Shown: positions 17,995 to 26,699 of the stretch, piece by piece | How the letters are laid out: every line of letters starts with the position of its first letter | Position numbering within the stretch: position 1 is the stretch's first letter | Source: a virus | Taxonomy: Duplodnaviria; Caudoviricetes | DNA: 64,000 bases | Direction: 5' to 3' (one strand) | IMG/VR virus record: IMGVR_UViG_3300020036_003099 | Location: 9,614 to 73,613 of that record | Translations under genes and position numbers: made by a program | The notes under the pieces: model-generated | The model's database searches: none | What the model was told of the DNA's origin: nothing | What the model saw: only the letters and a program-made list of their open reading frames with translations

Positions 17995-20196
17995 TTGAAA
18001 ATCAACTCTGACGAACACAAGTTGGAGACTGACGGATTCGATCAGTTCCAACAAAAAGGTTTTTCTATCAAACAATCTGCTAGAGCCTTTGAAGTCCTTT
18101 CCTCTAACCTCTACTCAAACAAAGTTAAAGCCATCGTGCGCGAACTGGGTTGCAATGCCTGGGACGCTCACGTTGAGCGAGAGAAGCTAAGGAAAAGAAA
18201 TCCTAAACACCCTCACTTGGCACCGTCTAACCAAGCGTTTGAGATCACCCTGCCTAATACGTGGTCCCCTATGTTTGTCATTAGGGACTACGGTATAGGT
18301 TTGTCTAACGAAGATGTTTTGGGTTTGTACACAACTTACTTTGGATCAACAAAAGAGCAAAGCAATGACACAATCGGAGCCTTTGGACTCGGTTCTAAAT
18401 CTCCGTTTTGTTATACCGATCAGTTCACTGTTACATCTTTCTTCAACGGTACTAAGTCAACTTACCAAGCTTTTATCGGTGAAGATGGTGCCCCCGCCAT
18501 CGCTTTGCTATCATCAGAGCCAACAAGTGAAAAGAATGGTATACAGATCTCTCTTTCAGCCAAAGCCTCTGATTTCAACTCTTTTAAAGATAACACTCAA
18601 GAGGTTTTCAAGTGGTTCACCACTGACAAGCCTTTGGTAAAGGGTCAAAACCCCTTTTGGTTATCCGAGCCTGAAGCTTTTAACGGTAAGAAATGGTCAC
18701 ATTTCTACAGAACCACCAACACCGTCTCTTTTTTTGTTAGGCAAGGGAACGTGGTTTATCTTGTAGATGTCGATTCGTTTTCTACGACTTCGCTATCACA
18801 AACGCACAAATCACTTTTAAAGTATAGTTTTGTCGTGGATGTTCCTATAGGTTCCGTAAATGTCACGGCTTCCAGGGAGCGTTTGAACTATGACCGCAAT
18901 ACAGAGGCGTATCTCGTGAAGATGCTGGACGGTATGCACAAAGAAATAGTTGATGATTTAAAAACCGAAATTAGTGATACAGACACACAATGGAAAGCTG
19001 TAGATTTTTTCAACAAAAGAATTAGACAAGACTCTTTTTATAGTCCCTTGGTTCAAGGCTTGTCTCTGAAAAACGGTTTAAAACTGGAGCACTGCTTGTT
19101 TTTTGATCTACGCAAAGAAACAAAGAATGTCGTGCCAGACCCAAAAGATCCCACAAAAACCTTAACAGTCACCACCAAAGAACCCGTTTTAACAATCTAT
19201 TTTAAAAGCTACCACAGACAAGACTCAATCACTTATGGTTCTTTTTCCCCTGGAGATTACACTTTAGTCTTCGATGATCTACACGTAAGCAGTTTCTGGC
19301 AAAAGTACGATTTAAACAGGGTTGTAGACGGTAAAAAAGTTTGGTTAATCCGCAGAGTAGACAAAAACATGTCCACCACAGACGCTTTAACCCTAATCTG
19401 TAAACAGTTCGGAGATGTTGACCCTAAAGAAATCCTTAAGTTCTCTTCTCTACCAGACCCCGTAAAAGCACCTAAACGCACGACTCAAACAAGAAAGCTT
19501 TTAAAGTTAAACCCTAGCAAGTCTGCTCAAAGAAGCTTCTGTTTTTGGGAGGACGCCACGCACGATATGTCTAAAGGTGGTTATTTTGTCTACACCTACG
19601 CAGGATCACCCGAAGGTTTCCCTTCAATAGGGACAGCTATAAACGAAGCCTACAGTTTAAATCTTTTAAACTCAGTGGAAGTCTTCGGGGTTCCCAGGGG
19701 CTCCAGAGATATGTTCAATAAAGACGTAGCCGCAAATGCTACAAAGTGGGAACCCTTTAAAACCTATTTAAAGGATCAAGTTTTGGCTTTTTCCAAAAAA
19801 TACGACTTTGAAAAAACCGCTGTTTTAAAAAGGGCTTTGTCACTTTTACCTTTAAAGTGGAGGGCAATTTATGGATTCATAACTTTACACAATTTAACTT
19901 GCTCAAAACAGATAATGTCAGCAGTTCAAGCTTACAATTTGTATCTAAAACTGGTTGAACCTGTCGTTTCCGCCTCGTTAACTATTAACAAGTACATCGC
20001 TTTAGGTCACGCAGTTGGTGTAGATGTTCAAGATGTTTTCTCCAGCGAACCTGAAAAAACTGAAAGTGACTACAAATTAGGGTTGACAAAAGAGACACAA
20101 AGCCTTAAAACAAAGTATCCGCTGGTGGATCTCCTTGATTTACCCGAGAAACCTACCCAGGAAGACCTGACCAACATCCAAGCCTATTTAAGCTGA
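17995..20196 (+). CDS. rIIA: rIIA-like protein (GHKL ATPase N-terminus)
   Basis: EVLSSNLYSNKVKAIVRELGCNAWDAH, IRDYGIGL, TTYFGSTK, GAFGLGSKSPF, VTASRERL. Confidence 0.9.
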   Translation: MKINSDEHKLETDGFDQFQQKGFSIKQSARAFEVLSSNLYSNKVKAIVRELGCNAWDAHVEREKLRKRNPKHPHLAPSNQAFEITLPNTWSPMFVIRDYGIGLSNEDVLGLYTTYFGSTKEQSNDTIGAFGLGSKSPFCYTDQFTVTSFFNGTKSTYQAFIGEDGAPAIALLSSEPTSEKNGIQISLSAKASDFNSFKDNTQEVFKWFTTDKPLVKGQNPFWLSEPEAFNGKKWSHFYRTTNTVSFFVRQGNVVYLVDVDSFSTTSLSQTHKSLLKYSFVVDVPIGSVNVTASRERLNYDRNTEAYLVKMLDGMHKEIVDDLKTEISDTDTQWKAVDFFNKRIRQDSFYSPLVQGLSLKNGLKLEHCLFFDLRKETKNVVPDPKDPTKTLTVTTKEPVLTIYFKSYHRQDSITYGSFSPGDYTLVFDDLHVSSFWQKYDLNRVVDGKKVWLIRRVDKNMSTTDALTLICKQFGDVDPKEILKFSSLPDPVKAPKRTTQTRKLLKLNPSKSAQRSFCFWEDATHDMSKGGYFVYTYAGSPEGFPSIGTAINEAYSLNLLNSVEVFGVPRGSRDMFNKDVAANATKWEPFKTYLKDQVLAFSKKYDFEKTAVLKRALSLLPLKWRAIYGFITLHNLTCSKQIMSAVQAYNLYLKLVEPVVSASLTINKYIALGHAVGVDVQDVFSSEPEKTESDYKLGLTKETQSLKTKYPLVDLLDLPEKPTQEDLTNIQAYLS

Positions 20197-21784: not shown

Positions 21785-22056
21785 CAGATCTAGAATTACA
21801 AGACAAACTTTATGCGTTGGTTAACAATCACCTTCAAACCAACAGCCCTGAAGCCCCTAGAGAAAGCGTCTTTGCCCTTTTTGCGGTTGTCATCCGACAC
21901 TGTTCTTTACTATCTCTTTTTGGTACCGACGAAACTATCTTAGCGGCTATTTTTGATGAATCTAAAAAAGAGTTCCTGCGTATCACTGCCGAAGCCAAAC
22001 GACAATTCACAGATTTAATAGAAGGAGAAACAGATGAAAATAAAACGACACACTAG
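21781..22056 (+). CDS. Hypothetical protein
   Basis: 91 aa, start/stop overlap with the previous gene. Confidence 0.55.
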   Translation: MTDLELQDKLYALVNNHLQTNSPEAPRESVFALFAVVIRHCSLLSLFGTDETILAAIFDESKKEFLRITAEAKRQFTDLIEGETDENKTTH

Positions 22057-22342
22057 CGGCAACGTTATTCATGCTCCGTTTGCCTTTCTAGATAACGAAA
22101 GTTTGATCCGGTATTATCGTGAGCGTATGGAAGAGCTGGCACTACTCCCCGAAGCGGGACCACCAGACAGCGCCTTAAACTACACGCTGGACTGGTTAGA
22201 GCGGGAAATAGACGACAGGTATAACACGCAACGCCTGACTTCTTTTGACATATATCGCCTGGGACAAACAACAATAAACAAAGCTGAAAAAAGTTCCAAA
22301 AAAATAAATTTAGGTGTTGACGAAGGACCCTCAGCGGCGTAG
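22034..22342 (+). CDS. Hypothetical protein
   Basis: 102 aa; its 3' end contains the promoter of the ncRNA array. Confidence 0.55.
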   Translation: MKIKRHTSGNVIHAPFAFLDNESLIRYYRERMEELALLPEAGPPDSALNYTLDWLEREIDDRYNTQRLTSFDIYRLGQTTINKAEKSSKKINLGVDEGPSAA

Positions 22343-22353: not shown

Positions 22354-22420
22354 ACGATTGACTGCAGCAAACAACCGCCGAAAGGCACTTGCATCAGGAG
22401 CAAACCAAAGTTCAATCCGT
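22354..22420 (+). ncRNA. Y-RNA-like unit 1
   Basis: Closing stem ACGATTGA/TCAATCCGT (bulged C), CTGCAGCAA motif, GCC-GAAA-GGC hairpin, TTGC-ATCAGGA-GCAA hairpin with a 7-nt loop. Confidence 0.6.
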
Positions 22421-22439
22421 ATCTAAAAGATTCAAATTA

Positions 22440-22499
22440 AGGGTTCTCTACAGCAAACTAAATAATTTTCACTTTCAATGAAAACCAAAAGTAGAACCT
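22440..22499 (+). ncRNA. Y-RNA-like unit 2 carrying a Glu(UUC)-like anticodon stem-loop
   Basis: Stem AGGGTTCT/AGAACCT, CTACAGCAA motif, TTTTCA-CTTTCAA-TGAAAA (loop CU-UUC-AA). Confidence 0.6.
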
Positions 22500-22550
22500 G
22501 TCACCTATCTGGTAAAAAGTACACTATACCTAAATATTTGAAACGCTAAA

Positions 22551-22665
22551 GGGCTAGTTCCAGCATATAATTTGCTCTTGTAAAGCAGAGGTTGTTGGTT
22601 CGAGTCCAACCAGAGGGCGAAAGCCTGATGTAGCTCAATTGGTCGAGCGCTAAAAAAACTAGCCC
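22551..22665 (+). ncRNA. Y-RNA-like unit 3 with circularly permuted tRNA-Thr(UGU)-like domain
   Basis: Perfect 9-bp stem GGGCTAGTT/AACTAGCCC, TCCAGCAT motif, then anticodon arm (CU-UGU-AA), variable loop, T arm, acceptor stem capped by GAAA, D arm; no CCA end. Confidence 0.75.
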
Positions 22666-22685
22666 GTTAGGGTTTCAAATATAAA

Positions 22686-22832
22686 ACGTATGTCTACAGC
22701 AACGGCCCTTTTCCTTTTGGAAAAGACGCCAACTAATTTCCTCGCCTGAGGATGTAGCTCAGCTGGTTAGAGCGCCTGGTCAAAAGCTTGGAGGACGTTG
22801 GTTCGAATCCAACCATTAAAACAACATACCGT
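22686..22832 (+). ncRNA. Y-RNA-like unit 4 with degenerate tRNA body
   Basis: Stem ACGTATGT/ACATACCGT (bulged C), CTACAGCAA motif, two hairpins, then intact D arm and T arm with a defective anticodon arm and only a 3-4 bp acceptor stem. Confidence 0.68.
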
Positions 22833-22866: not shown

Positions 22867-24324
22867 ATGACGAACTCACCTATCTTCAAAAACGCAATCA
22901 GAAACACACCAGTTAAAGCTTTAACAGCCAACGGCGCTATCACAAACGCGTCTTCTTTGGACCCCTTGGTAGACCTCTTCTTTGTTATCGGCTCTGCTAG
23001 AAACATGTCCGATGCACAACTCTTCCCTATGTTTGAAAAGGCTCTCGCAGAGGACAAGGTTAACACCCTTAAGATGCTCTTTTGGGCCCGTGACATACGT
23101 GGCGGCTCAGGTGAAAGAAAAACCTTTGTCAGGCTTTTCAACTATCTATATAAGCATTACGACTACGAAATGGATGCTATTAGCTTAATCGGTCTTATCC
23201 CCACGTTCGGTAGATTTAAAGATCTTATTGAGTCTTTGCCCCCTGAGGTCGCCGCTGCGTTCCTCTTAAAAGGTATCTCTGCGAAGAACGGCTTGGCTGC
23301 TAAATGGTCCCCGCGTAAAGGTCCTGTGTTCAACGACATGAGAAAGATCCTTAATGTTACCCCTAAAGCCCTCCGTAAAGCCCTTGTGGAGCTCACCAAG
23401 GTGGTTGAAACACAAATGTGTGCGAAACAGTGGGATCAGATTATCTTTGACCACGTGCCTTCTGTGGCTGCTGCTAGATACCAAAAGGCTTTCTCGAAGC
23501 ACCAGCCCGAGCGCTACAAAGCCTACAGGGATGCCCTTAACTCCAAAGACCCTGCTGTAAAGGCTACCGCTAAGATCAACGCTAGCGCTATCTTTCCCCA
23601 CGATGTCCTTAAAAGTCTTCATTTGGGTGATGCAGGGGTTGCTACGGCTCAATGGGAAGCTTTACCCGATTACCTAGGGGACAACAAGATCATCCCTGTT
23701 TGTGACGTATCCGGCTCCATGACTTGCCAAGTTGGTGGTAACCCTAATCTGCGGTGTATCGATATTTGCGTCTCTTTAGGTCTCTACATAGCCGATAAGC
23801 AAAAGGGAGCCTTTAAAGACATTTTCTGCACGTTCTCTTCGAAACCTTCTTTGGAGGTTCTTAAGGGCAACATCGCGCAAAAAGTACGTCAACTAAACGC
23901 CGCCCACTGGGAGATGTCCACCAACGTCGAAGGAGCCTTTAGAGCTATCCTTAAAATGGCTGTGGAGAACAAGGTACCTGCCTCGGACATGCCTAAAATG
24001 CTGCTAATCTTCTCAGATATGGAGTTTAACCCCTCAACAGTGTCTGGATTGACCAATCAGCAAGTCGCTGAAGGATACTTCAAGGCTGCTGGATACAAAT
24101 TACCTAAAATTGTTTACTGGAATCTAAACGCTAGACCAGGCAACAACCCCGTAACGATCCGCGAAGATGGTGTTTGTCTGGTCTCAGGGTTTTCCCCTTC
24201 GATCCTTAAAGCTATCCTGGCTGGTTCTGAAGCCATAGAAGACGACTTTTCACCTAGGGCTATCATGATGAAAACCCTTAATGACCCGCGTTACGCGGTG
24301 GTGGAGGAACTCTTGAAAAAATGA
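22867..24324 (+). CDS. TROVE/Ro60-like helical domain plus vWA protein (DUF2828-type)
   Basis: TANGA, LVDLFF, FWARDIRGGSGERKTF, FGRFKDL, LAAKWSPR; vWA MIDAS VCDVSGSM, STN, FSDMEF, VYWNL, VSGFSP. Confidence 0.8.
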   Translation: MTNSPIFKNAIRNTPVKALTANGAITNASSLDPLVDLFFVIGSARNMSDAQLFPMFEKALAEDKVNTLKMLFWARDIRGGSGERKTFVRLFNYLYKHYDYEMDAISLIGLIPTFGRFKDLIESLPPEVAAAFLLKGISAKNGLAAKWSPRKGPVFNDMRKILNVTPKALRKALVELTKVVETQMCAKQWDQIIFDHVPSVAAARYQKAFSKHQPERYKAYRDALNSKDPAVKATAKINASAIFPHDVLKSLHLGDAGVATAQWEALPDYLGDNKIIPVCDVSGSMTCQVGGNPNLRCIDICVSLGLYIADKQKGAFKDIFCTFSSKPSLEVLKGNIAQKVRQLNAAHWEMSTNVEGAFRAILKMAVENKVPASDMPKMLLIFSDMEFNPSTVSGLTNQQVAEGYFKAAGYKLPKIVYWNLNARPGNNPVTIREDGVCLVSGFSPSILKAILAGSEAIEDDFSPRAIMMKTLNDPRYAVVEELLKK

Positions 24325-25367: not shown

Positions 25368-25988
25368 ATGAACAACCCACAATACGCACACAAAAACGTT
25401 ATCACTGTTGACCAAGCAAAAGAATACGATCACTACATTTTGATTGATCAATCCGGTTCCATGGGTTCGCCCTCAACTAAAATGCAAGGCAAATCCCGCT
25501 GGCAAGAAGCCCAAGAGTTCACAGAAGGCTACGCTCGTTTTGCCGAACAAGTTGACGATGATGGTTTGACGGTTATCACCTTTAACTCTTCTTGTAAGGT
25601 TTACGATGGTGTCAAAGCTGATAAAGTAACGTCTATCTTCGCAAACTCCCCTATGGGTTCCACCAACTTGGCGGCTGCTTTGGAAGCGGCTTTCAAGAAG
25701 AAGTTTTCTGGGTCTAAAAAAGCAATCATGATGGTTTTGACGGATGGCTCACCTGATGACCGTCAAGCCGTTATCCAGTCCATTGAACGGGCCTCTAACA
25801 AACTTGACCGAGACGAAGAGCTGGCTATTCAGTTTATTCAAATTGGCGATGATTCAGGCGCTAAGCAATTCCTGGCAAAACTTGATGACGACCTAAAAGG
25901 CAAGTTTGACATTGTTAACTCTTTGACGCGTGAAGAAGCCGAGAGCCTGACGATTGAAGAACTTCTCTGGCAAGCTCTCAACGATTAG
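25368..25988 (+). CDS. vWA domain protein (Ter-cluster type)
   Basis: MIDAS IDQSGSM, GSTNLAAAL, VLTDGSPDD, FIQIGDD, KLDDDL. Confidence 0.88.
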   Translation: MNNPQYAHKNVITVDQAKEYDHYILIDQSGSMGSPSTKMQGKSRWQEAQEFTEGYARFAEQVDDDGLTVITFNSSCKVYDGVKADKVTSIFANSPMGSTNLAAALEAAFKKKFSGSKKAIMMVLTDGSPDDRQAVIQSIERASNKLDRDEELAIQFIQIGDDSGAKQFLAKLDDDLKGKFDIVNSLTREEAESLTIEELLWQALND

Positions 25989-26102: not shown

Positions 26103-26699
26103 ATGAATAACCCCGCTCAAGCAGCTGCCCCTTTGACTTTCGACATTGTACCCAAAGGCGTAACTGTAGAAGTTAAAGACAAAGCCGGTCAAACTTTCTC
26201 TAAACTGTACGTAGGTGCAGGTTGGGATATGGCTGGATCTGCCTCTGTAGACCTTGACCTTGTTGGTGCTTGCCTCGTGAACGGTAAACTGACAGCTCAA
26301 ACACGTTTGGTTTACTTTGGTGATAAAACAGAGCCAGGTGTTACGTTGTCTGCTGATAACACAACAGGAGCCGGTGACGGTGACGATGAATCCATGGTTA
26401 TCGATCTGGATAAAGTTGAAGCTGAAATCACGTCTATTGCCATCGGTATCATTGCCTACGCTGGCGCTGATATTTCAACGGCTAAGAACGTTCACTTTAG
26501 AGTTTGCAACGGCTCTACCACAAGTGATCCACAAGTTTTCGATGTACCTATGAACCAAGCAACTGCAGGTGACACCGTGCTTCACGCGGCTAACCTTGTC
26601 AGAGGCGCTGGTGGCTGGTCTATCGAGAATGTCTCCAGTTTCTATCAAAAAGGTAACGGGACAGCTGCGGTACAAGGTTTTGCGGGACTATTCGCATAA
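26103..26699 (+). CDS. terD: TerD-family stress protein
   Basis: VGAGWD...DLDLVGA, LVYFGD, DNTTGAGDGDDESMVIDL, GGWSIEN. Confidence 0.88.
   Translation: MNNPAQAAAPLTFDIVPKGVTVEVKDKAGQTFSKLYVGAGWDMAGSASVDLDLVGACLVNGKLTAQTRLVYFGDKTEPGVTLSADNTTGAGDGDDESMVIDLDKVEAEITSIAIGIIAYAGADISTAKNVHFRVCNGSTTSDPQVFDVPMNQATAGDTVLHAANLVRGAGGWSIENVSSFYQKGNGTAAVQGFAGLFA

What the first reader, a model, noticed from the sequence alone, without database searches (positions are those of the whole stretch)
22534..22682. Circularly permuted tRNA-Thr(UGU) mimic that keeps its anticodon arm, inside a 26-bp processing stem
The order in unit 3 is anticodon arm (TTGCT-CTTGTAA-AGCAG, 22572-22588), variable loop AGGTT, T arm (GTTGG-TTCGAGT-CCAAC), acceptor 3' strand CAGAGGGC, GAAA tetraloop, acceptor 5' strand GCCTGATG (tandem G-A mismatches), then D arm (GCTC-AATTGGTC-GAGC). 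The break is between the D and anticodon arms, so it has no CCA end and cannot be charged. As I recall them, YrlA RNAs replace the anticodon arm with the Ro stem; here all four arms are kept. The closing stem extends outward (ATATTTGAAAC at 22534-22544 pairs with GTTTCAAATAT at 22672-22682), resembling an RNase III-type excision helix.
Basis: partly seen in the sequence, partly recalled or inferred. Interest (0 to 1): 0.82.

Follow-up and report, generated by a model that had tools for sequence, protein, structure and literature searches.

The report
Phage Y-like RNA with inside-out tRNA
This phage RNA is a tRNA-shaped decoy-like molecule (sealed at the amino-acid end, opened inside the anticodon stem) that belongs to the Y-RNA/YrlA kind and most likely partners the Ro60-shaped protein encoded just downstream; it is a new variant of a known kind, not a working or a uniquely built tRNA.

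Summary
22534-22682 folds far better than shuffles (z -5.85). It contains, in this order, an anticodon-type hairpin, a 5-nt variable loop, a T arm, a GAAA-closed acceptor stem and a D arm. Covariation across relatives supports all four helices.

It is a YrlA-type Y RNA:
- Rfam YrlA gives a sub-threshold hit.
- The T/acceptor/D core is 88.7% identical to a unit of Caulobacter phage CcrColossus, a phage in which YrlA-like RNAs were published.
- It lies 185 nt upstream of a DUF2828-vWA gene whose predicted structure matches Ro60 over its full length.

- Many published YrlAs already carry a stem-loop ("V") upstream of the T arm, where this hairpin sits. The hairpin is therefore not unique, and the UGU triplet is not conserved.
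- The break lies inside the anticodon stem. Nt 27-28 (22650-22651) pair with 42-43 (22587-22588). This held in 55 of 58 cells over 29 units, and in 24 of 24 cells of an independent set.

What differs from published YrlAs is the partner protein (DUF2828, not Pfam TROVE) and the handle motif (CAGCA, not GNCGAA).

This scan has reported the same family many times on other DNA. Function is inferred, not shown.

The parts
22534..22549 (+). Outer extension of the closing helix, 5' strand. 22534-22544 pairs with 22672-22682, and 22546-22549 with 22667-22670.
   Evidence: Sequence and RNAfold MFE. Not seen by eye in the aligned relatives.
22551..22559 (+). Handle stem, 5' strand (GGGCUAGUU). Pairs with 22657-22665.
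   Evidence: Relatives keep an AGG.../...CCUGUU-type stem whose middle covaries.
22560..22571 (+). Single-stranded linker CCAGCAUAUAAU carrying the CAGCA motif (22561-22565). Proposed contact site for the Ro60-like protein.
   Evidence: ACAGCAA occurs 253 times on the gene strand and 42 times on the other strand in 157 DUF2828 loci. In 33 TROVE loci the counts are 12 and 7. Binding itself is inferred.
22572..22588 (+). Anticodon-type stem-loop. The local pairs are 22574-22576 with 22584-22586 (nt 29-31 with 39-41). The loop is CUUGUAA (22577-22583). 22587-22588 (nt 42-43) pair with 22650-22651.
   Evidence: Covariation. Composite stem: pair 27-43 formed in 29/29 units and pair 28-42 in 26/29. 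With the linkers shuffled among units, 0 of 5000 shuffles reach this.
22589..22593 (+). 5-nt variable loop AGGUU. U48 can form the Levitt pair with A15 of the D loop.
   Evidence: Sequence. A15/U48 here against G15/C48 in CcrColossus, L007 and L014 (rows printed).
22594..22610 (+). T arm GUUGG-UUCGAGU-CCAAC.
   Evidence: Rfam YrlA and tRNA alignments. Models R1 and R2. Covariation.
22611..22630 (+). Acceptor-like stem closed by a GAAA tetraloop. Seven pairs plus one extra, with tandem G.A/A.G. No CCA end.
   Evidence: All 7 pairs change on both sides among relatives. The tandem G.A is shared with CcrColossus and CcrPW.
22631..22649 (+). U8-A9, D arm GCUC-AAUUGGUC-GAGC, and N26 (G22649).
22650..22656 (+). 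Nt 27-28 (CU), which pair with 22588 and 22587, followed by an A-rich single-stranded linker.
   Evidence: The CUAAA / CGUAAA linker is conserved in relatives.
22657..22682 (+). 3' strands of the handle stem (22657-22665) and of the outer extension (22667-22670, 22672-22682).
22867..24324 (+). Gene for a 485-aa DUF2828 + DUF7788 (vWA) protein with a Ro60-like fold. Proposed protein partner.
   Evidence: Pfam. AlphaFold2 model with pLDDT 86.9. Foldseek against PDB: 9kop 6.9e-10, 1yvr 1.4e-8 (TM 0.60), 2nvo 2.5e-7, aligned over the full length.
22354..22832 (+). The array that unit 3 belongs to. The other stem-closed units lie at about 22354-22420, 22440-22499 and 22686-22832, each with (C)U(A/G)CAGCA(A) just inside the 5' stem strand.
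   Evidence: Sequence. Unit 4 holds a non-permuted tRNA-like body (Rfam tRNA 39.9 bits, 22752-22816).

Best explanation
Unit 3 is a non-coding Y-like RNA of the YrlA type. It is one of four stem-closed RNAs encoded just upstream of a Ro60-shaped DUF2828-vWA protein, on the same strand.

The 5' and 3' ends pair into a 'handle'. This handle, together with the adjacent single-stranded CAGCA tract, is the proposed binding site for the ring protein.

The rest of the RNA is a complete tRNA-like body. It has a D arm, a T arm, a 5-nt variable loop and an acceptor stem sealed by a tetraloop. Its anticodon stem is built from three strands: nt 27-28 come from the 3' side, nt 29-31 from the 5' side, and nt 39-43 run continuously. 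The handle therefore branches out of the anticodon stem between nt 28 and 29.

The RNA cannot be aminoacylated or decode. By analogy with Ro60/Y RNA particles, the handle tethers the protein and the tRNA-shaped module engages a tRNA-recognising factor (a modification enzyme, nuclease or exoribonuclease) during infection.

Shown here: the structure, its conservation, the linkage to the gene and the fold of the protein. Inferred: expression, protein binding, and the role in RNA surveillance or counter-defence.
For: - **Structure:** z -5.85. Covariation supports all four helices. The composite anticodon stem holds in 55 of 58 cells over 29 units, and in 24 of 24 cells of a TROVE-linked test set not used to form the idea. 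Register controls give 1/24 and 15/24, and 0 of 5000 shuffles reach the observed value.
- **Family:** Rfam YrlA scores 25.5 bits here and 26.7-40.1 bits at the equivalent units of 10 other DUF2828 loci. The TROVE-linked Bxz1 unit also scores only 32.5 bits. The T/acceptor/D core is 88.7% identical to a unit upstream of the CcrColossus TROVE gene. CcrColossus is listed among phages with published Y RNA-like RNAs (PMC12135203).
- **Linkage:** my T-acceptor-D model hits upstream and on the same strand in 24 of 33 TROVE phage loci and in many DUF2828 loci. ACAGCAA shows a strand bias of 253 to 42 in DUF2828 loci.
- **Protein:** its predicted fold is Ro60-like over the full length.
- **Function, from papers:** phage phiLo Ro60 binds two upstream Y-like RNAs and host PNPase (PMC12135203). 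The Ro60-like gp130 of phage Bas63 counters the Ppl defence (bioRxiv 10.1101/2024.10.10.617714).
Against: - No expression, end-mapping or binding data exist for this phage, which is a metagenomic record with an unknown host.
- The consensus scan found no promoter or terminator bracketing the array.
- The Rfam score is far below the YrlA gathering score (25.5 against 69).
- The YrlA 5' motif GNCGAA is absent.
- The partner protein is not a Pfam TROVE protein. BLASTP against the CcrColossus Ro60 finds only the vWA metal site.
- Many DUF2828 loci had no tRNA-like unit within the 1.2-1.5 kb flanks I fetched, so the tRNA module is not obligatory for the system.
- The RNAfold MFE does not draw the T arm.
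Confidence: 0.8

Rival explanations
1. Anticodon-loop bait or decoy. The retained anticodon stem-loop is the working part. It would present a tRNA-like anticodon loop to host anticodon-directed defence nucleases or toxins, either as a sacrificial or non-cleavable competitor or as a sensor. The Ro60-like protein would protect or deliver it.
For: - The loop keeps U33 (26/29), A37 (28/29), A38 (28/29) and mostly U36 (20/29), while positions 34-35 vary.
- The commonest triplets are GUU (5), UGU (4) and GCU (4).
- PARIS AriB targets tRNA-Lys(UUU), Thr(UGU) and Asn(GUU) at U36AAUC|A41 (PMC12409363). Several TROVE-linked units read UAAUC at that place.
- A Ro60-like phage protein counters a defence system.
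Against: - 10 of 22 TROVE-linked units, and several DUF2828-linked ones (L014:925, L020, L138, L089), have no anticodon loop at all.
- Units 1 and 2 of this array have no tRNA body.
- The window's loop is followed by A39. In tRNA-Lys the U39A change abolishes AriB cleavage.
- The match of triplets could reflect descent from ANN-decoding tRNAs.
- The host and its defence systems are unknown.
Confidence: 0.1
2. Cis-acting leader. The four units are structured parts of the 5' leader of the DUF2828 mRNA. Their main job would be autoregulation, or processing and stability of that mRNA, rather than acting as free RNAs.
For: The units lie directly upstream of the gene, on the same strand, with no terminator-like site between them and the gene. 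The long closing helix of unit 3 could be a processing site.
Against: In Felixounavirus phages and in L160 the homologous units lie about 0.5-1 kb downstream of the gene, among tRNA genes. Conservation of a full tRNA elbow is not needed for a leader. Published Ro60 Y RNAs act as free RNAs (PMC4201824).
Confidence: 0.07
3. Permuted tRNA gene. The transcript would be cut, rejoined or circularised, and matured into an ordinary CCA-ending tRNA-Thr(UGU) that decodes.
For: All cloverleaf elements are present. M. smegmatis YrlA can be cleaved by RNase P and receive CCA (PMC4201824). The window has no tRNA-Thr among its five ARAGORN tRNAs.
Against: - The acceptor stem is sealed by a conserved tetraloop, with an eighth pair and tandem G.A.
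- The triplet differs among units with the same body.
- The break lies inside the anticodon stem and carries a conserved protein-type handle that is shared with units lacking any tRNA body.
- Known permuted tRNA genes rely on the archaeal/eukaryal splicing endonuclease (my own knowledge, not tested here).
Confidence: 0.02
4. Decaying remnant of two tandem tRNA genes, with no present function.
For: The T-then-D order is what a tRNA dimer would leave behind (the dimeric-tRNA origin model cited in bioRxiv 10.1101/312249).
Against: Compensatory changes occur in every helix across distant phages. The unit is consistently placed next to Ro60-type genes.
Confidence: 0.01

Closest known systems
YrlA (Y RNA-like A; Rfam RF02553; Chen et al. 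2014, PMC4201824; S. Typhimurium structure PDB 6CU1, bioRxiv 10.1101/312249)
   Same: - A 5'/3' stem, then T arm, closed acceptor-like stem and D arm in that order.
- tRNA elbow nucleotides and a covarying Levitt pair.
- A fourth stem-loop upstream of the T arm in many members.
- Encoded next to a Ro60-type gene on the same strand.
   Different: - The partner is Pfam DUF2828+DUF7788, not TROVE.
- The handle motif is CAGCA(A), not GNCGAA.
- The score is 25.5 bits against a gathering score of 69.
- The stem-loop has full anticodon-arm geometry and completes a 5-bp stem with nt 27-28, whereas S. Typhimurium YrlA has no anticodon loop.
- The closing helix is unusually long.
YrlA-like units of Caulobacter phages CcrColossus/CcrPW and mycobacteriophage Bxz1 (TROVE-linked)
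   Same: The T/acceptor/D core is 88.7% identical to CcrColossus, including the tandem G.A in the acceptor stem. The hairpin + AGGUY + T arm layout is the same. The same CU:AG pairing of nt 27-28 with 42-43 is present.
   Different: - Their handles carry GGCGUAG / GCCGAG-type motifs.
- Their proteins are Pfam TROVE.
- Their loops read GUU (CcrColossus) and UGC (Bxz1), not UGU.
Thermus phage phiLo Ro60 with Yrl1/Yrl2 (PMC12135203; PDB 9KOP, 9L5Y)
   Same: A phage Ro60-fold protein with Y-like RNAs encoded just upstream. It is the best structural match of the window protein (Foldseek 6.9e-10).
   Different: Yrl1 and Yrl2 were identified by a CGAA motif in a stem-bulge-stem. 'tRNA-like' does not occur in that paper's text.
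Circularly permuted tRNA genes of Cyanidioschyzon merolae and some archaea (my own knowledge; alluded to in bioRxiv 10.1101/312249)
   Same: The 3' half of a tRNA is encoded upstream of the 5' half.
   Different: Those genes are matured through a circular intermediate into ordinary CCA-tRNAs. Here the acceptor end is permanently closed, the break carries a protein handle, and the triplet is not conserved.
Dictyostelium Class I RNAs (Rfam RF01414; PMC7919456)
   Same: A short stem joins the 5' and 3' ends, an 11-nt motif ending in ACAGCAA sits just inside the 5' strand, and the terminal residues are conserved. Unit 2 of this array scores 30.1 bits (E 0.0015).
   Different: - The score is below the gathering score (41.5).
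- No further hits in 16 related loci.
- Unit 3 itself is too long to match.
- Class I RNAs are reported only from dictyostelids and bind an RRM protein.

Membership tests
YrlA-type Y RNA (Chen et al. 2014) | Near-invariant T and D stem-loops with tRNA elbow nucleotides, T arm 5' of D arm | tested here: met
   Rfam YrlA alignment of 22587-22651. Model R1 scores 75.4 bits. Covariation.
YrlA-type Y RNA (Chen et al. 2014) | [quoted passage not shown] | tested here: met
   22611-22630. All 7 pairs change on both sides among relatives.
YrlA-type Y RNA (Chen et al. 2014) | Fourth, less conserved stem-loop ('V') upstream of the T arm | tested here: met
   22572-22588. Three of 5 pairs are compensatory. 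The same position is occupied in the CcrColossus and Bxz1 units.
YrlA-type Y RNA (Chen et al. 2014) | Encoded within about 4 kb of a Ro60 (TROVE) orthologue, on the same strand | tested here: inconclusive
   The gene lies 185 nt downstream on the same strand. Its predicted fold is Ro60-like over the full length, but Pfam assigns DUF2828/DUF7788, not TROVE. Sequence profiles barely reach PDB Ro60 chains (E 0.11).
YrlA-type Y RNA (Chen et al. 2014) | GNCGAA(N0-1)G motif near the 5' end (proposed Rsr contact) | tested here: not met
   I read no GNCGAA in 22534-22571. CCAGCAU takes its place. TROVE-linked units do carry GGCGUAG / GCCGAAG-type motifs.
YrlA-type Y RNA (Chen et al. 2014) | Reaches the Rfam RF02553 gathering score | tested here: not met
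   25.5 bits against 69. The TROVE-linked Bxz1 unit also fails, at 32.5 bits, so this cut-off excludes phage members in general.
YrlA-type Y RNA (Chen et al. 2014) | Bound by Ro60/Rsr in vivo; carries tRNA modifications (D, pseudouridine 55) | not testable with these tools
   Needs immunoprecipitation and modification mapping.
Functional tRNA / permuted tRNA gene | Free acceptor end that can carry CCA, a conserved anticodon, and detection by tRNA finders | tested here: not met
   The acceptor stem is closed by GAAA. ARAGORN finds nothing. Rfam tRNA gives a partial 19.4 bits, below the 29-bit cut-off. The triplet varies among homologous units.
Dictyostelium Class I RNA (RF01414) | 42-65 nt RNA with a 6-bp terminal stem and an 11-nt motif next to the 5' strand, at or above the gathering score | tested here: not met
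   Unit 3 gives no hit. Unit 2 scores 30.1 bits, below 41.5. None of 16 related loci gives a hit.

The most novel reading that the evidence does not exclude
The anticodon stem-loop is kept on purpose. The Ro60-like particle would display a near-complete tRNA whose anticodon loop (U33, U36-A37-A38, with a variable 34-35) mimics ANN-decoding tRNAs such as Thr(UGU) and Asn(GUU), the same species that PARIS AriB attacks. It would then act as a decoy, a non-cleavable competitor or a sensor against anticodon-directed host defences. The DUF2828 proteins and their CAGCA handles would form a second, undescribed branch of Ro60/Y-RNA particles.
Probability: 0.1. Interest if true: 0.85.

Novelty: new variant of a known kind. 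Interest (0 to 1): 0.55.

Why it matters
Y RNAs and Ro60 are well studied in animals and in a few bacteria. What the tRNA-like module of bacterial Y RNAs does is still open.

This unit and its relatives show three things:
- The same tRNA-shaped module is attached to two different handles that go with two different ring-protein families (TROVE and DUF2828). This suggests that the handle binds the protein and that the tRNA body is an exchangeable effector part.
- The stem-loop called 'V' in the literature is, at least in the phage units analysed here, the distal part of a true 5-bp anticodon stem with a U-turn-type loop. These RNAs therefore mimic the whole tRNA, not only its elbow.
- I found no paper that describes the DUF2828 pairing. 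My search for the term found no relevant paper, and one preprint only speculates that the 'tRNAs' next to Bas63 gp130 may be Y RNAs.

These points give concrete mutants to test in cultured phages such as the Felixounaviruses.

Tried and rejected
- **ARAGORN and Rfam at gathering thresholds:** nothing at the locus.
- **Protein against PDB sequences:** phmmer and a 26-sequence profile gave no significant Ro60 match. Only the fold comparison showed the relationship.
- **BLASTP against CcrColossus Ro60:** only the vWA DxSGS motif aligned.
- **Promoter and terminator scan:** no site brackets the array.
- **First MAFFT alignment (A1):** it mis-registered the hairpin by one column. I re-aligned from the hairpin start (A4).
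- **Fully local 5-bp hairpin:** rejected as the best model. Its outer two pairs form in only 22/29 and 20/29 units, against 29/29 and 26/29 for the trans pairs.
- **First D-arm finder:** it mislocated six units.
- **Dictyostelium Class I link:** one sub-threshold hit at unit 2, not repeated in 16 related loci. I kept it as a lead only.
- **Sim et al. 2020 review (PMC10870794):** not held in the library.

Full report
**1. Setting**

The window is part of a 73.6-kb virus record with direct terminal repeats. The finding lies in a 530-nt non-coding stretch between a small ORF (22034-22342) and a 485-aa ORF (22867-24324), all on the + strand.

**2. Checking the observation**

- hairpin 22572-22588 (5 bp, loop CUUGUAA)
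- AGGUU, 22589-22593
- T arm, 22594-22610
- acceptor-like stem closed by GAAA, 22611-22630, with tandem G.A/A.G
- U8-A9, then the D arm, 22633-22648
- a closing helix of 24 pairs (11+4+9) with two 1x1 mismatches, formed by 22534-22559 and 22657-22682

The 149-nt stretch folds at -57.1 kcal/mol against -34.5 +/- 3.9 for shuffles (z -5.85). ARAGORN calls no tRNA here. Rfam gives a sub-threshold YrlA hit over T arm, acceptor stem and D arm (25.5 bits, E 0.004 in the local search), and a partial tRNA hit over hairpin and T arm (19.4 bits).

**3. The neighbouring gene**

Pfam assigns DUF2828 and DUF7788 (a vWA domain) to the 485-aa protein, not TROVE. Sequence searches against PDB chains find nothing significant.

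An AlphaFold2 model built on 26 relatives has a mean pLDDT of 86.9. It matches Ro60 structures over its whole length:
- Thermus phage phiLo Ro60: 9kop 6.9e-10, 9l5y 8.6e-9
- Xenopus Ro60: 1yvr 1.4e-8 (TM 0.60) and 2i91 3.0e-8 (TM 0.63)
- D. radiodurans Rsr: 2nvo 2.5e-7

After these, only vWA domains match. The protein is therefore Ro60-shaped but belongs to a different sequence family. Relatives occur in 702 phage records.

**4. Relatives of the RNA**

- BLASTN finds the T/acceptor/D core at 88.7% identity in Caulobacter phages CcrColossus and CcrPW. It is unannotated there and lies about 400 nt upstream of their 'RNA-binding protein'. That protein is a Pfam TROVE + vWA protein, that is, a bona fide Ro60.
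- CcrColossus is listed among phages with published Y RNA-like RNAs (PMC12135203, citing Chen et al. 2014).
- Mycobacteriophage Bxz1 has the same kind of unit 190 nt upstream of its TROVE gene. It too scores only 32.5 bits with Rfam YrlA, so the Rfam cut-off of 69 excludes phage members in general.
- A covariance model of T arm, acceptor stem and D arm only (R1) finds full-length units next to DUF2828 genes in many IMG/VR loci. It also finds them upstream and on the same strand in 24 of 33 loci with a CcrColossus-type TROVE gene.
- Rfam YrlA hits of 26.7-40.1 bits recur at these units in 10 DUF2828 loci.
- A Felixounavirus version is present in 240 phage records and is mostly unannotated.

**5. 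Structure from comparison**

On a MAFFT alignment of seven units running from the hairpin to the D arm (A4), all four helices covary. 94.5% of cells are paired, 15 of 21 pairs change on both sides, and 0 of 500 shuffles or slid registers come close. The hairpin has 3 of 5 compensatory pairs.

The outer two 'pairs' of the hairpin are often mismatched (U.C in L007, L014, L104 and others). The two bases that follow N26 after the D arm always fit the 3' strand instead: CU with AG, CG with CG, AC with GU.

| Pair | Trans pairing, all 29 units | Local alternative, all 29 units |
|---|---|---|
| 27-43 | 29/29 (CG, UA, AU, GC) | 22/29 |
| 28-42 | 26/29 | 20/29 |

- In the 17 units used to form the idea, pair 27-43 forms in 17/17 and pair 28-42 in 14/17.
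- In 12 independent TROVE-linked units fetched afterwards, both pairs form in 12/12. Register controls give 1/24 and 15/24 cells. With the linkers shuffled among units, 0 of 5000 shuffles reach the observed value.
- Positions 29-31 pair locally in 27 to 29 of 29 units.

In the window this gives C22650-G22588 and U22651-A22587, stacked on 22574-22576 / 22584-22586. The handle therefore leaves the tRNA body between nt 28 and 29, inside the anticodon stem.

In other units the break lies elsewhere:
- In the anticodon loop, with no hairpin and a stem made wholly in trans: L014:925, L020, L138, L089 and 10 of 22 TROVE-linked units.
- Behind an anticodon arm that follows the D arm: L125:768 and L150:945.

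**6. The loop**

Across 29 units the 7-nt loop keeps U33 (26), A37 (28), A38 (28) and mostly U36 (20). Positions 34-35 vary, and the triplets include GUU 5, UGU 4, GCU 4 and GAU 2. The window's UGU is thus not an identity mark. The A15/U48 (window) against G15/C48 (CcrColossus, L007, L014) Levitt-pair covariation reported for YrlAs is also seen (rows).

**7. The handle**

All four units of the window carry (C)U(A/G)CAGCA(A) just inside the 5' strand of their closing stem.

| Loci | ACAGCAA on gene strand | ACAGCAA on other strand |
|---|---|---|
| 157 DUF2828 loci | 253 | 42 |
| 33 TROVE loci | 12 | 7 |

In the DUF2828 loci, stem-closed units of the form AGG-stem-(Y)ACAGCAA ... stem-CCUGUU are frequent. 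TROVE-linked units instead carry GGCGUAG / GCCGAAG-type motifs, which resemble the published GNCGAA. The handle goes with the protein family, while the tRNA-like body is shared. This is my main reason for assigning protein binding to the handle; the assignment is an inference.

**8. What the literature says**

- Chen et al. 2014 (PMC4201824) define YrlA by T, AS and D stem-loops plus a less conserved fourth stem-loop 'V' upstream of T, and they read V as a variable arm.
- Wang et al. 2018 (bioRxiv 10.1101/312249) show that S. Typhimurium YrlA folds like tRNA, lacks the anticodon loop and has a kinked anticodon-like stem. They also cite a model in which YrlAs arose from dimeric tRNA transcripts. 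That model predicts just what is seen here: the anticodon arm, variable loop and T arm of a first tRNA, then the D arm of a second.
- phiLo Ro60 binds two upstream Y-like RNAs and host PNPase (PMC12135203).
- Bas63 gp130, described as Ro60-like by structure, counters the Ppl defence. The authors speculate that neighbouring 'tRNAs' are Y RNAs (bioRxiv 10.1101/2024.10.10.617714).
- A full-text search for DUF2828 found no relevant paper.

**9.

It is partly supported. The RNA is a permuted, uncharged tRNA mimic, and an anticodon-type stem-loop is kept. However:
- a stem-loop at this position ('V', upstream of the T arm) is described for many published YrlAs;
- the break is at 28/29, not 26/27;
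- 'Thr' is not conserved;
- the long outer helix is the family handle plus a local extension that I did not see in the aligned relatives. Its RNase III role is untested.

**10. Mechanism and rivals**

- Most likely (0.8 for the identity; lower for each functional step): a Y-like RNA whose handle binds the Ro60-shaped protein and whose tRNA-shaped body engages a tRNA-recognising factor during infection.
- Decoy or bait for anticodon nucleases (0.1). PARIS AriB targets Lys(UUU), Thr(UGU) and Asn(GUU) at U36AAUC|A41 (PMC12409363). Against this, the window has A39, a change that abolishes cleavage in tRNA-Lys, and many units lack the loop.
- Cis-acting mRNA leader (0.07).
- True permuted tRNA gene (0.02).
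- Dead tRNA-dimer remnant (0.01).

**11. Earlier notes of this scan**

The same RNA-protein pairing has been reported many times on other DNA: 336 notes in at least 253 genomes hold the search words. Two earlier follow-ups also place the break at 28/29 or 'inside the anticodon stem'. I reached that reading from my own alignments before reading them and tested it on an independent set.

**12. Novelty**

This is a new variant of a known kind. It is a YrlA-type tRNA mimic joined to a different handle and a different Ro60-fold protein family, with a complete, three-strand anticodon stem-loop.

Noticed in passing
window 22440-22499 (unit 2) and the handles of all four units, 22354-22832: Unit 2 matches Rfam Dicty_Class_I_RNA (30.1 bits, E 0.0015, cut-off 41.5). 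The family handle (AGG-stem, then (Y)ACAGCAA, then stem-CCUGUU) resembles Dictyostelium Class I RNAs: start AAG, an 11-nt motif next to the 5' strand, end CUGU (PMC7919456). No further Class I hits turned up in 16 related loci.
   Followed up: partly
window 22686-22832 (unit 4; tRNA-like body 22752-22816): Unit 4 holds a tRNA-like body in normal D-anticodon-T order, with a truncated acceptor stem, inside the same kind of handle. Rfam tRNA scores 39.9 bits, but ARAGORN does not call it.
   Followed up: no
window 22577-22586; L001, L169-L201 and other loci: The anticodon-type loops of 29 units keep U33, U36, A37 and A38 but vary at 34-35. U36-A37-A38 is typical of ANN-decoding, t6A-carrying tRNAs (my own knowledge). 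UAAU is also the sequence noted next to the PARIS AriB cleavage site (PMC12409363).
   Followed up: partly
window 22587-22656 against L001:3001-3070 (CcrColossus): The tRNA-like core is 88.7% identical between a DUF2828-linked unit and a TROVE-linked unit, while the handles and the proteins differ. This suggests either exchange of the module between the two systems or a shared constraint from one tRNA-binding factor.
   Followed up: partly
L125:754-860 and L150:926-1040: In these two DUF2828-linked units a 5-bp/7-nt anticodon-type arm follows the D arm in the normal tRNA position, and a different hairpin precedes the T arm. The permutation point therefore differs between units.
   Followed up: no
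L030:3940-4110 and 240 phage records (Felixounavirus): A homologous permuted unit with a UACAGCAA handle lies about 1 kb downstream of the DUF2828 gene, inside the tRNA cluster. In GenBank it is unannotated, or lies under a 'hypothetical protein' or neighbouring tRNA features.
   Followed up: partly
window 25368-25988 and 26103-26699: A vWA-TerF-like protein and a TerD-domain protein are encoded 1-2 kb downstream of the Ro60-like gene. This Ter-type stress-response pair in a phage was not examined.
   Followed up: no
window 17995-20196: A 733-aa ORF upstream has a weak HATPase_c_3 (GHKL ATPase) match that sits right at the Pfam cut-off.
   Followed up: no
L001:2480-3440 (CcrColossus): CcrColossus carries an array of at least four or five handle-closed units (GGUGGCGUAG ... 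CGCCNGUUCCCC) upstream of its Ro60 gene. One of them overlaps a feature annotated as tRNA-Gln.
   Followed up: partly
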